From the NCBI GenBank assembly GCA_035553895.1, contig DATMJI010000211.1, forward strand, positions 1-44,938: DNA of 44,938 bases, written 5' to 3'; not shown here. Source of the stretch: Acidimicrobiales bacterium. GTDB lineage: Bacteria > Actinomycetota > Acidimicrobiia > Acidimicrobiales > CADCSY01. The text below continues a report on this DNA, generated by a model with database tools.

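What the first reader, a model, noticed from the sequence alone, without database searches (positions are those of the whole stretch)
6317..44779. About 38-kb glycan-assembly island with eight sulfotransferase genes of three classes: candidate heavily sulfated exopolysaccharide system
Seen in sequence: eight ORFs carry PAPS-type P-loop/5'-PSB motifs. They are at 13363-14250, 19915-20790, 25542-26375, 26381-27232, 27235-28083, 30774-31667, 31664-32623 and 32641-33609. They are interleaved with 5 GT4 and 1 GT2 genes, a PglC-type initiating transferase, wzm/wzt, a Wzy-like protein, a Wzz/BY-kinase, a deacetylase, a GNAT, a methyltransferase and an ATP-grasp/HAD pair. None of the sulfotransferases has a signal peptide, so sulfation would be cytoplasmic. 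Established knowledge: sulfated bacterial glycans are uncommon; known cases include rhizobial NodH/LpsS, mycobacterial Stf enzymes and the cyanobacterial sulfated EPS. To my knowledge, loci with this many sulfotransferases are not a described feature of actinobacterial-type genomes. Inference: the product is a multiply and regiospecifically sulfated polymer.
Basis: partly seen in the sequence, partly recalled or inferred. Interest (0 to 1): 0.85.

Follow-up and report, generated by a model that had tools for sequence, protein, structure and literature searches.

The report, continued
Best explanation
The window holds an envelope-glycan assembly island of roughly 43 kb (about 1405-44779) from an uncultured Acidimicrobiia-type actinobacterium.

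Shown by sequence: a small PglC-type phosphoglycosyl transferase, five GT4-type and one GT2 glycosyltransferase, a GT-C-like membrane transferase, a deacetylase, a GNAT, a methyltransferase, an ATP-grasp/HAD pair, Wzm/Wzt, a Wzz/BY-kinase, and eight cytoplasmic PAPS-type sulfotransferases in four sequence groups.

Inferred mechanism:
1. An oligosaccharide or polymer is built on polyprenyl phosphate at the cytoplasmic face.
2. It is partly N-deacetylated.
3. It is sulfated at several distinct positions. The four enzymes resembling HS 3-OST/NDST are the likeliest O- or N-sulfotransferases for sugars.
4. It is exported by Wzm/Wzt.
5. Outside the cell, the GT-C-like enzyme and a secreted CEMIP-type β-helix protein modify or trim it.

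A second modification runs in parallel. L-proline is adenylated and loaded on a carrier protein, then oxidised by an AnaB/PigA-type dehydrogenase, most likely to pyrrolyl-2-carboxyl-S-PCP. It is halogenated on the carrier by a Bmp2-like and a CndH/PltA-like flavin halogenase. These two are co-transcribed with a CPA-family transporter. The acyl group then passes through the Cys-nucleophile hydrolase-fold protein hyd1, which pairs with the nucleophile-less hyd2. It ends on a hydroxyl or a freed amine of the glycan. The logic parallels Dlt-type D-alanylation and CloN7/CouN7 pyrrolyl transfer to a sugar.

The predicted product is a polyanionic, multiply sulfated glycan bearing (halo)pyrrole-2-carboxyl esters or amides.
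For: Sulfotransferases:
- All eight are above Pfam cut-offs with PAPS motifs.
- Class A is nearest to HS 3-OSTs and NDST.
- None has a signal or TM segment.

Glycan machinery.

Proline cassette:
- The dehydrogenase matches AnaB at E 9e-125 and PigA at 5e-82.
- The A-enzyme passes TIGR01733, matches PltF over its full length, and has a specificity code identical to an AnaC homologue.
- The PCP has a DSLG motif.

Halogenases:
- Both carry GxGxxG and WxWxIP.
- Hal2 matches Bmp2 at E 4e-77.
- Hal1 matches CndH, Mpy16 and PltA.

Linkage rather than mere adjacency:
- The cassette is interleaved with GTs and ST1 in the window.
- L092 (ProDH 84% identical) is collinear over 12 genes, g05 to wzm.
- Six of six Pfam-annotated contexts of close ProDH relatives are polysaccharide loci, and five of the six contain 1-3 sulfotransferases.
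- 13 of 80 genome loci carry ST homologues within 10 kb, including about 7 of the 16 closest.
- In the verrucomicrobial L020, one co-directional operon reads transporter, 2 halogenases, PCP, A, ProDH, epimerase, GT4, Wzx, sulfotransferase, UDP-Glc dehydrogenase, exosortase.
- hyd2 and hyd1 sit next to the cassette in L004, L005, L092 and L094 and are fused in L093. GxCxG in hyd1 and Arg in hyd2 are invariant.

Chemical precedent: CloN7/CouN7 transfer a pyrrolyl-2-carboxyl group from a carrier protein to a sugar hydroxyl.

Assembly: independently supported.
Against: - Nothing chemical was measured.
- No PAPS-synthesis, sulfate-uptake, flavin-reductase or phosphopantetheinyl-transferase gene is in the window.
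- No Wzx or Wzy was identified, although a BY-kinase co-polymerase normally accompanies them. The island may therefore continue past the right end, which is only 159 bp after the kinase.
- The dehydrogenase is at least as close to AnaB, which stops at pyrroline-5-carboxyl, as to the pyrrole-forming PigA/RedW. It falls below the NCBIfam equivalog cut-offs.
- The closest orthologous locus, L092, has no halogenase to the left of g05, so halogenation may be optional.
- The hydrolase-fold pair matches the exosortase-A 'hydrolase 1/2' models only weakly.
- The window's hyd1 lacks the putative catalytic His.
- The acceptor of the acyl group is unknown.
- Class B sulfotransferases look like protein or acyl-ACP sulfotransferases.
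- ST2 and ST3 have divergent 3'-PB motifs.
Confidence: 0.55

Rival explanations
1. The window is a composite of two or more adjacent but independent loci. One would be an ABC-transporter-dependent glycan unit that carries the prolyl-carrier cassette (about 5.5-19.3 kb). The other would be a separate, ST-rich EPS unit with the PGT and BY-kinase (about 19.9-44.8 kb). On this view sulfation and pyrrole acylation fall on different polymers.
For: - Two export logics coexist: Wzm/Wzt and a Wzz/BY-kinase.
- The window has many divergent transcription units.
- The collinear block in L092 covers only g05 to wzm before that contig ends.
- Seven of the eight sulfotransferases lie to the right of wzt.
Against: - ST1 sits inside the cassette block, and its orthologue does too in L092.
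- In L002, L003, L093, L094 and L020 the sulfotransferases are immediate or near neighbours of ProDH, A and PCP.
- Only one initiating PGT is present in the window.
- Homologues of right-arm genes (g32, g34, g39) lie within 10 kb of ProDH in L008 and L095.
Confidence: 0.2
2. The product is not a polymer. It would be a secreted small molecule or glycolipid, for example a sulfated, glycosylated halopyrrole natural product, and the island would be a secondary-metabolite cluster.
For: - Prolyl-carrier cassettes with PltA/Bmp2-type halogenases are hallmarks of pyrrole natural products.
- An ABC exporter is adjacent.
- Class B sulfotransferases resemble the CurM/OLS ST domains of polyketide pathways.
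Against: - No condensation, ketosynthase, thioesterase or other NRPS/PKS domain turned up in any gene.
- A polyprenyl-phosphate PGT, a Wzz/BY-kinase, a GT-C-like enzyme and seven GTs indicate lipid-linked glycan assembly.
- All six annotated contexts of close ProDH relatives are polysaccharide loci. They carry Wzx, Wzy_C, Poly_export, WecA-type, DegT or exosortase genes.
Confidence: 0.1
3. Some or all of the sulfotransferases act on protein rather than free glycan. On this view the island makes a sulfated glycoprotein. One candidate is the Thr-rich, Tat-exported, LARTG-bearing protein g33, which could be glycosylated and sulfated before export. Another is tyrosine sulfation of the small secreted proteins g05, g18 and g27.
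For: - ST7 and ST8 are nearest to protein-tyrosine sulfotransferases and share the RSGTTL, GDKxP and RDGR motifs.
- g33 is a mucin-like repeat protein with a Tat signal, and Tat exports proteins that folded in the cytoplasm.
- g06 resembles GT-C enzymes, a class that includes protein O-mannosyltransferases and oligosaccharyltransferases.
- Six genes for secreted proteins are embedded in the island.
Against: - g33 has no counterpart in any related locus, whereas the sulfotransferases recur.
- Sulfotransfer_3 is a broad family, and similarity to TPST does not fix the acceptor.
- The four class A enzymes resemble carbohydrate sulfotransferases.
- The g06 fold match is weak (TM 0.35-0.49).
Confidence: 0.08

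Closest known systems
Synechan (xss) sulfated-EPS cluster of Synechocystis PCC 6803, and the predicted wps-1 cluster of Actinoplanes missouriensis
   Same: Both are EPS loci in which cytoplasmic PAPS-type sulfotransferases of different subfamilies are interleaved with glycosyltransferases, a priming transferase and a co-polymerase.
   Different: - Each of those loci has two sulfotransferases, against eight here in four sequence groups.
- They use Wzx/Wzy. Here only Wzm/Wzt is identified and the putative Wzy looks like a GT-C enzyme.
- Neither has a prolyl-carrier/halogenase cassette, a CEMIP-like protein or the hydrolase-fold pair.
- Sulfation in Actinoplanes is itself unverified.
Animal heparan-sulfate modification enzymes (NDST N-deacetylase/N-sulfotransferase, 3-O-sulfotransferases)
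   Same: Class A enzymes (ST1, 4, 5, 6) match HS 3-OST-1/3A/5 and the NDST1 sulfotransferase domain at E 1e-13 to 1e-19. They share the 5'-PSB loop, a (K/R)KE motif at the position of the catalytic Glu, and the RxPVxRAxSH 3'-PB motif. A deacetylase gene is in the island, and a CEMIP/TMEM2-family β-helix protein is encoded next to the sulfotransferases.
   Different: - These are bacterial, cytoplasmic, soluble enzymes acting before export, not Golgi lumenal enzymes.
- The deacetylase is a separate PF01522 protein, not an NDST domain.
- No heparosan-type synthase (KfiA/C, PmHS) was found.
- The backbone sugar is unknown.
Pyrrolyl-2-carboxyl-S-carrier pathways (PltF/PltL/PltE/PltA of pyoluteorin; PigI/G/A; RedM/O/W; Bmp1-4; AnaC/D/B of anatoxin)
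   Same: The same three-gene logic is present: a stand-alone proline adenylation enzyme, a carrier protein and an ACAD-fold dehydrogenase. It comes with halogenases of the carrier-dependent clade. Supporting matches are PltF E 3e-99, AnaB E 9e-125, PigA E 5e-82 and Bmp2 E 4e-77, plus a specificity code identical to an AnaC homologue.
   Different: - No downstream PKS, NRPS or thioesterase is present.
- The cassette is embedded in a glycan locus.
- The dehydrogenase falls below the RedW/PigA equivalog cut-offs.
- Whether oxidation stops at the pyrroline (as in AnaB) or goes to the pyrrole is not known.
CloN1-N7 / CouN1-N7 of clorobiocin and coumermycin (pyrrolyl-2-carboxyl ester on a deoxysugar)
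   Same: This is the only established case I could cite in which a proline-derived pyrrolyl-2-carboxyl group made on a carrier protein is transferred to a sugar hydroxyl by a dedicated acyltransferase, CloN7/CouN7.
   Different: - The acceptor there is a small aminocoumarin glycoside, not a lipid-linked glycan.
- Homology between hyd1/hyd2 and CloN7 was not tested because no sequence was available.
- hyd1 has a Cys rather than a Ser at the nucleophile elbow.
Exosortase-A (PEP-CTERM/XrtA) EPS accessory set: TIGR03098 ligase, ACP, TIGR03100 hydrolase 1, TIGR03101 hydrolase 2
   Same: The same gene logic occurs in an EPS locus: an AMP-forming ligase, a carrier protein and two α/β-hydrolase-fold proteins. 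These models are the best NCBIfam hits for hyd1 and hyd2 and a strong secondary hit for the ligase. The verrucomicrobial relative L020 carries the cassette in an operon that ends with an exosortase.
   Different: - All hits are below the curated cut-offs (72 against 203, 53 against 168, 347 against 592 bits).
- The window has no exosortase and no PEP-CTERM proteins, and the host is Gram-positive-type.
- The PLP decarboxylase of that set is replaced by a prolyl-carrier dehydrogenase.
- The function of that set is itself only hypothetical (model type 'hypoth_equivalog').
Dlt system (D-alanylation of teichoic acids)
   Same: An amino acid is activated by a stand-alone adenylation enzyme, loaded on a small carrier protein and delivered to an envelope glycopolymer. 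DltA models score 282-284 bits against the window's A-enzyme.
   Different: - There is no DltB (MBOAT) or DltD.
- The amino acid is oxidised, and probably halogenated, on the carrier.
- Transfer is predicted to be cytoplasmic through hydrolase-fold proteins.

Membership tests
PAPS-dependent sulfotransferase superfamily (Pfam Sulfotransfer_1 / Sulfotransfer_3) | The profile-HMM match is above the curated gathering score. | tested here: met
   8 of 8 ORFs score 59-138 bits against cut-offs of 22-27.
PAPS-dependent sulfotransferase superfamily (Pfam Sulfotransfer_1 / Sulfotransfer_3) | A 5'-phosphosulfate-binding P-loop is present (PKxGTTxL-like, with K or R). | tested here: met
   8 of 8 have it: GAMKCGTTSL, GAARAGSTAL, GATRAGSTAL, GAQRCGTSSL, GCGRSGTTL, GRGRSGTTL, GYPRSGHSL and GLHRSGTSL.
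PAPS-dependent sulfotransferase superfamily (Pfam Sulfotransfer_1 / Sulfotransfer_3) | A 3'-phosphate-binding motif (R...S) and a catalytic base are present. | tested here: inconclusive
   The motif is clear in ST1, 4, 5 and 6 (RxPV[DE]RAxSH, with a conserved (R/K)KE) and in ST7 and 8 (RDGRDVALS, with P[GD]E[ST] and GDKTP). ST2 (VTRNPYDNIAT) and ST3 (VRHPLVVALAT) keep the Arg but not the Ser. The assignment of catalytic residues is by analogy only. No structural superposition was done.
PAPS-dependent sulfotransferase superfamily (Pfam Sulfotransfer_1 / Sulfotransfer_3) | PAPS is available in the cell (cysDN/cysC) and sulfotransferase activity is measurable. | not testable with these tools
   No APS-kinase or ATP-sulfurylase gene is in the window. 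The only trace is a sub-threshold P-loop hit inside the BY-kinase.
ABC-transporter-dependent glycan export (Wzm/Wzt, TagGH type) | An ABC-2 permease and a Wzt/TagH-type ATPase are adjacent, in a locus with a PGT and GTs. | tested here: met
   PF01061 and PF00005 match, and TagH and galactan-Wzt are the best NCBIfam hits, though below cut-off. The PGT is at 38448-39110.
Wzx/Wzy-dependent EPS pathway | A Wzx flippase is present (Polysacc_synt / MOP family). | tested here: not met
   No gene in the window matches PF01943, PF13440 or a related family. It could lie beyond the right end of the window.
Wzx/Wzy-dependent EPS pathway | A Wzy polymerase is present. | tested here: not met
   The candidate, g06, has no Wzy_C hit. 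Its confident model (pLDDT 88) retrieves GT-C enzymes and no Wzy, WaaL or SEDS-type structure with meaningful probability.
Wzx/Wzy-dependent EPS pathway | A polysaccharide co-polymerase with a BY-kinase is present. | tested here: met
   TIGR01007 scores 200.6 bits against a cut-off of 108. There are two TM helices, a canonical Walker A in the second domain and a C-terminal YYKSY cluster.
Prolyl-carrier-protein to pyrrolyl-2-carboxyl pathway (PltF/L/E, PigI/G/A, RedM/O/W type) | A stand-alone adenylation enzyme specific for L-proline is present. | tested here: met
   TIGR01733 is above its cut-off. PltF (6o6e) matches at E 3e-99 over residues 5-531. The motif-anchored 10-residue code DLFSLALVCK is identical to the AnaC homologue in L066 and to 13 of the 16 neighbours compared. 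Substrate loading was not assayed.
Prolyl-carrier-protein to pyrrolyl-2-carboxyl pathway (PltF/L/E, PigI/G/A, RedM/O/W type) | An ACAD-fold dehydrogenase acts on prolyl-S-carrier protein. | tested here: inconclusive
   The best PDB hits are AnaB (E 9e-125) and PigA (E 5e-82). The RedW and PigA NCBIfam models are the top hits, but at 398 bits they fall below their cut-offs of 650 and 500. Two-electron (pyrroline) and four-electron (pyrrole) outcomes cannot be told apart from sequence.
Prolyl-carrier-protein to pyrrolyl-2-carboxyl pathway (PltF/L/E, PigI/G/A, RedM/O/W type) | A carrier protein with a phosphopantetheine-attachment serine is encoded next to the two enzymes. | tested here: met
   PF00550 is above its cut-off, and a DSLG motif is present. 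Gene overlaps (11418-11421 and 13022-13025) indicate translational coupling.
Flavin-dependent halogenases (carrier-protein-dependent clade: PltA, Mpy16, Bmp2, CndH) | A GxGxxG FAD motif is present together with the WxWxIP motif that separates halogenases from mono-oxygenases. | tested here: met
   Hal1 has GGGPAG at aa 13 and WIWVIP at aa 220. Hal2 has GGGPGG at aa 9 and WAWSIP at aa 219. A Lys in a K-x-G-x-x-(F/V) context about 60 residues after GxGxxG is visible in both sequences. Its assignment as the catalytic Lys is by analogy.
Flavin-dependent halogenases (carrier-protein-dependent clade: PltA, Mpy16, Bmp2, CndH) | The closest characterised relatives act on carrier-tethered substrates. 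| tested here: met
   Hal2 matches Bmp2 at E 4e-77, then PltA and Mpy16. Hal1 matches CndH, ChlB4, CmlS, Mpy16 and PltA at E 1e-40 to 1e-48. Halogenating activity and halide preference were not tested.
Exosortase-A (XrtA/PEP-CTERM) EPS accessory set | TIGR03098, TIGR03100 and TIGR03101 match above their trusted cut-offs, and an exosortase with PEP-CTERM proteins is present. | tested here: not met
   All three are below cut-off (347 against 592, 53.5 against 168, and 72 against 203 bits). No exosortase is in the window, although one is present in the related L020 operon.
GT-C fold glycosyltransferases (for g06) | A polytopic membrane fold superposes on ArnT, STT3 or PMT, with an acidic residue in the first extracytoplasmic loop. 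| tested here: inconclusive
   The top 17 meaningful Foldseek hits are all GT-C enzymes with probability 0.57-1.0. However, E is only 6e-3 to 0.5 and TM 0.26-0.49. An invariant Asp (D100) lies in a conserved Y..GDA.GYHGAG loop. Topology and donor were not tested.
G8 / CEMIP β-helix family (for g32) | The protein is homologous to proteins carrying PF10162 (G8) and PF24606 (CEMIP_beta-hel). | tested here: met
   tblastn gives E 3e-83 to the L095 PF24606 protein and E 9e-25 and 4e-20 to the L096 G8+CEMIP proteins. The direct Pfam scan of g32 found only a faint Beta_helix hit, so membership rests on transitive homology.

The most novel reading that the evidence does not exclude
The window would be the extreme member of an undescribed, cross-phylum class of exopolysaccharide loci. 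The class spans Acidimicrobiia and other Actinomycetota, Verrucomicrobiota, and possibly Chloroflexota, Planctomycetota and Myxococcota. These loci would covalently attach a carrier-protein-built, enzymatically halogenated pyrrole-2-carboxyl group to a sulfated polysaccharide resembling a glycosaminoglycan.

If so, this would be the first enzymatically organohalogenated bacterial polysaccharide. It would also be a bacterial counterpart of heparan-sulfate-type patterning, with a separate deacetylase, NDST/3-OST-like sulfotransferases and a CEMIP-type depolymerase. The hydrolase-fold pair (Cys-nucleophile hyd1 with pseudo-enzyme hyd2) would be a new kind of carrier-to-glycan acyltransferase. That would also explain the long-unassigned exosortase-A 'hydrolase 1/2' genes.
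Probability: 0.3. Interest if true: 0.9.

Novelty: new variant of a known kind. Interest (0 to 1): 0.78.

Why it matters
Outside cyanobacteria, sulfated bacterial polysaccharides are barely documented at the gene level. The synechan paper states that none had been reported in other bacteria. A 2026 paper on Actinoplanes still calls actinomycete sulfation unverified.

Sulfated glycosaminoglycan-like polymers have nevertheless been detected in granular sludge and anammox EPS, and their producers are unknown. This island and its relatives in environmental Acidimicrobiia give concrete candidate genes for such polymers. They also offer a panel of eight bacterial, soluble sulfotransferases that could be mined for regiospecific glycan sulfation.

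The embedded proline-to-(halo)pyrrole cassette would matter in three ways if it really decorates the glycan:
- It would extend carrier-protein 'natural-product' chemistry to cell-envelope polymers.
- It would predict organohalogen-bearing EPS in soils and sediments.
- It would suggest a function for the unassigned ligase/ACP/hydrolase-1/hydrolase-2 set of exosortase EPS systems.

Tried and rejected
1. Wzy assignment for g06. It has no Pfam hit, and the AF2 model with Foldseek points to GT-C instead. Rejected as stated.

2. Exosortase-A accessory-set membership for the ligase and hydrolases. These models are the best hits but all fall below cut-off, and no exosortase is in the window. I kept this as an analogy only.

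3. Reading the 805-aa ORF 9004-11421 as one protein. Its N-terminal 430 aa is the antisense of a GT4 gene. Only the C-terminal 381 aa (ProDH) is real.

4. Reading the PGT as a 348-aa protein. The N-terminal 128 aa overlaps the deacetylase gene on the other strand and looks non-coding.

5. A metagenome scan anchored on ST5, meant to find other ST-dense islands. It returned only 10 mostly short loci with 2 sulfotransferases at most, so it says little.

6. Look-ups of Hal2 and the HAD protein, meant to extend the contig beyond the window ends and look for PAPS or Wzx genes. Neither is on record.

7. NCBIfam naming of the eight sulfotransferases. There is no specific family, only far sub-threshold NoeE hits.

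8. Recurrence of a g33-like Thr-rich anchored protein in related loci. None was found, which weakens the glycoprotein reading.

9. Mobile-island signatures. The window has no tRNA, no Rfam hit and no compositional break. 'Island' here means a gene cluster, not a demonstrable horizontally acquired element.

10. Literature searches combining halogenase, prolyl-carrier or pyrrole with polysaccharide and sulfotransferase. They found nothing relevant. The library is limited to open-access text.

Full report
GENE MODEL

The window is about 72% GC, so mechanical ORF lists are full of antisense artefacts. I called genes by third-position GC. I then checked them against an independent ENA assembly of the same organism. 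That assembly is 99.8% identical over 12.9 kb, and its gene calls agree for window 24.0-35.6 kb. About 40 genes result. The window has no tRNA, no Rfam hit and no compositional break.

THE OBSERVATION

All eight proposed ORFs are sulfotransferases above Pfam's curated cut-offs, at 59-138 bits. By pairwise BLAST they fall into four groups:
- Class A: ST1, ST4, ST5 and ST6, 34-55% identical.
- Class B: ST7 and ST8, 50% identical.
- ST2 and ST3, two singletons that are only remotely B-like (E 1e-5 to 1e-8).

All eight keep a 5'-PSB P-loop. Six keep a canonical 3'-PB motif, and ST2 and ST3 keep only its Arg. None has an N-terminal hydrophobic segment, which is consistent with cytoplasmic action.

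Class A is nearest to heparan-sulfate glucosamine 3-O-sulfotransferases and to the NDST sulfotransferase domain. Class B is nearest to protein-tyrosine sulfotransferases and to the CurM/OLS sulfotransferase domains. NCBIfam has no specific model for any of the eight.

A phmmer count over everything fetched gives 8 in the window. The maximum in 96 loci from other organisms is 3. The density is real and exceptional.

THE LISTED NEIGHBOURS

The following are confirmed:
- Five GT4-type glycosyltransferases and one GT2.
- A Bac_transf PGT whose real start is probably 38448, giving a PglC-sized protein of about 220 aa.
- Wzm/Wzt.
- A Wzz/BY-kinase.
- A deacetylase, a GNAT, a methyltransferase, an ATP-grasp ligase and a HAD hydrolase.

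The exception is the 'Wzy-like' g06. It has no Pfam hit. Its family is made up of 'hypothetical' proteins from Acidimicrobiales. A confident AlphaFold model (pLDDT 88, pTM 0.89) retrieves only GT-C enzymes (ArnT, STT3, AftB, ALG9, PMTs, Emb). The Foldseek probability is high, but the E-values and TM-scores are modest, and no Wzy or WaaL structure appears. No Wzx is present either. The only complete export route in the window is therefore the ABC transporter. The window ends 159 bp after the kinase gene, so more genes may follow.

Between the GT4 genes and ST1 lie three translationally coupled genes:
- An ACAD-fold dehydrogenase. Its best solved relatives are the prolyl-ACP dehydrogenase AnaB (E 9e-125) and PigA (E 5e-82). 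Its best NCBIfam models are RedW and PigA, both below cut-off.
- A stand-alone adenylation enzyme. It is above the TIGR01733 cut-off and matches PltF at E 3e-99 over its full length.
- A carrier protein with a DSLG motif.

The ten motif-anchored specificity positions of the A-enzyme read DLFSLALVCK. This is identical to the A-enzyme beside the AnaB homologue of the anatoxin producer Cuspidothrix, and to 13 of the 16 neighbours I compared. That AnaC is proline-specific is my own knowledge, not a tool result.

Two α/β-hydrolase-fold genes follow ST1 and a GT. Their best matches are the exosortase-A 'hydrolase 2' and 'hydrolase 1' models, both sub-threshold. hyd1 carries Cys at the nucleophile elbow (GxCxG) in 6 of 6 orthologues. 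hyd2 carries Arg there in 6 of 6. The two are fused in L093.

- A CPA-family transporter.
- Hal1, whose best matches are CndH, Mpy16 and PltA.
- Hal2, whose best match is Bmp2 at E 4e-77.

Both halogenases carry GxGxxG and WxWxIP.

IS THE CASSETTE PART OF THE GLYCAN SYSTEM?

I scanned one genome per GTDB species with the dehydrogenase. The nearest relatives are Acidimicrobiales and Acidimicrobiia MAGs, up to 74% identical. tblastn of all window proteins against the 80 loci gave these counts:
- Sulfotransferase homologues within 10 kb in 13 loci, including about 7 of the 16 closest.
- Halogenases in 13 loci.
- The hydrolase pair in L004 and L005.
- The transporter beside the halogenases in four loci from three other phyla.

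I also examined six Pfam-annotated contexts of close ProDH relatives from the large protein collection. All six are polysaccharide loci, and five contain 1-3 sulfotransferases. L092 (ProDH 84% identical) is collinear with the window over 12 genes, g05 to wzm, including ST1 and both hydrolases.

The verrucomicrobial locus L020 is a single co-directional operon. It reads transporter, two halogenases, PCP, A, ProDH, epimerase, GT4, Wzx, sulfotransferase, DUF218, UDP-glucose dehydrogenase, exosortase.

The linkage is therefore conserved across phyla and is not an accident of adjacency in this contig.

OTHER MEMBERS

g32 is Tat-exported. By transitive homology it belongs to the G8/CEMIP β-helix family. 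It matches a PF24606 protein in L095 at E 3e-83, and copies flank ProDH in L008, L012 and L096. Direct hits are only faint.

The island also encodes five further secreted proteins of unknown role, g05/g18 (paralogues), g20, g22 and g27. Another is g33, a Thr-rich repeat protein with a Tat signal and an LARTG motif followed by a hydrophobic tail. g33 has no counterpart in related loci.

MECHANISM

Shown: the enzyme families, their motifs, and their conserved co-location.

Inferred, in order:
1. The glycan is assembled on polyprenyl phosphate from the small PGT.
2. It is deacetylated and multiply sulfated in the cytoplasm.
3. In parallel, proline is converted to prolyl-S-PCP, then to pyrrolyl-S-PCP. 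Pyrrolinyl-S-PCP is the less likely alternative.
4. The carrier-bound group is halogenated.
5. It is transferred to the glycan through a hyd1 Cys-thioester.
6. The glycan is exported by Wzm/Wzt.
7. The GT-C-like enzyme and the CEMIP-like protein process it outside the cell.

The presence of Bmp2/PltA-type halogenases favours the aromatic pyrrole, because those enzymes act on pyrrolyl-S-carrier proteins (my own knowledge). The CloN7/CouN7 acyltransferases give a precedent for moving this group from a carrier to a sugar hydroxyl.

Weak points:
- No PAPS, PPTase or flavin-reductase gene is in the window.
- The AnaB-versus-PigA ambiguity remains.
- The window's hyd1 (like L092's) lacks the His conserved in the other four orthologues.
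- L092 has no halogenases next to g05.
- The acyl acceptor is unknown.

COMPARISON WITH WHAT IS KNOWN

The synechan cluster has two sulfotransferases and uses Wzx/Wzy. The same paper says sulfated polysaccharides were unknown outside cyanobacteria. Actinoplanes wps-1 (2026) has two sulfotransferases, with sulfation unverified. Pontiella has three GAG-like sulfotransferases, and that paper notes that the producers of sulfated GAG-like EPS in sludge are unknown.

I found no paper that links a prolyl-carrier or halogenase cassette with polysaccharide and sulfotransferase genes. The search covers open-access text only.

VERDICT

The island is a new variant of a known kind, a sulfated-EPS-type locus. 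It has an unprecedented number of sulfotransferases and an undescribed, phylogenetically recurrent (halo)pyrrole acylation module. All functional statements remain predictions.

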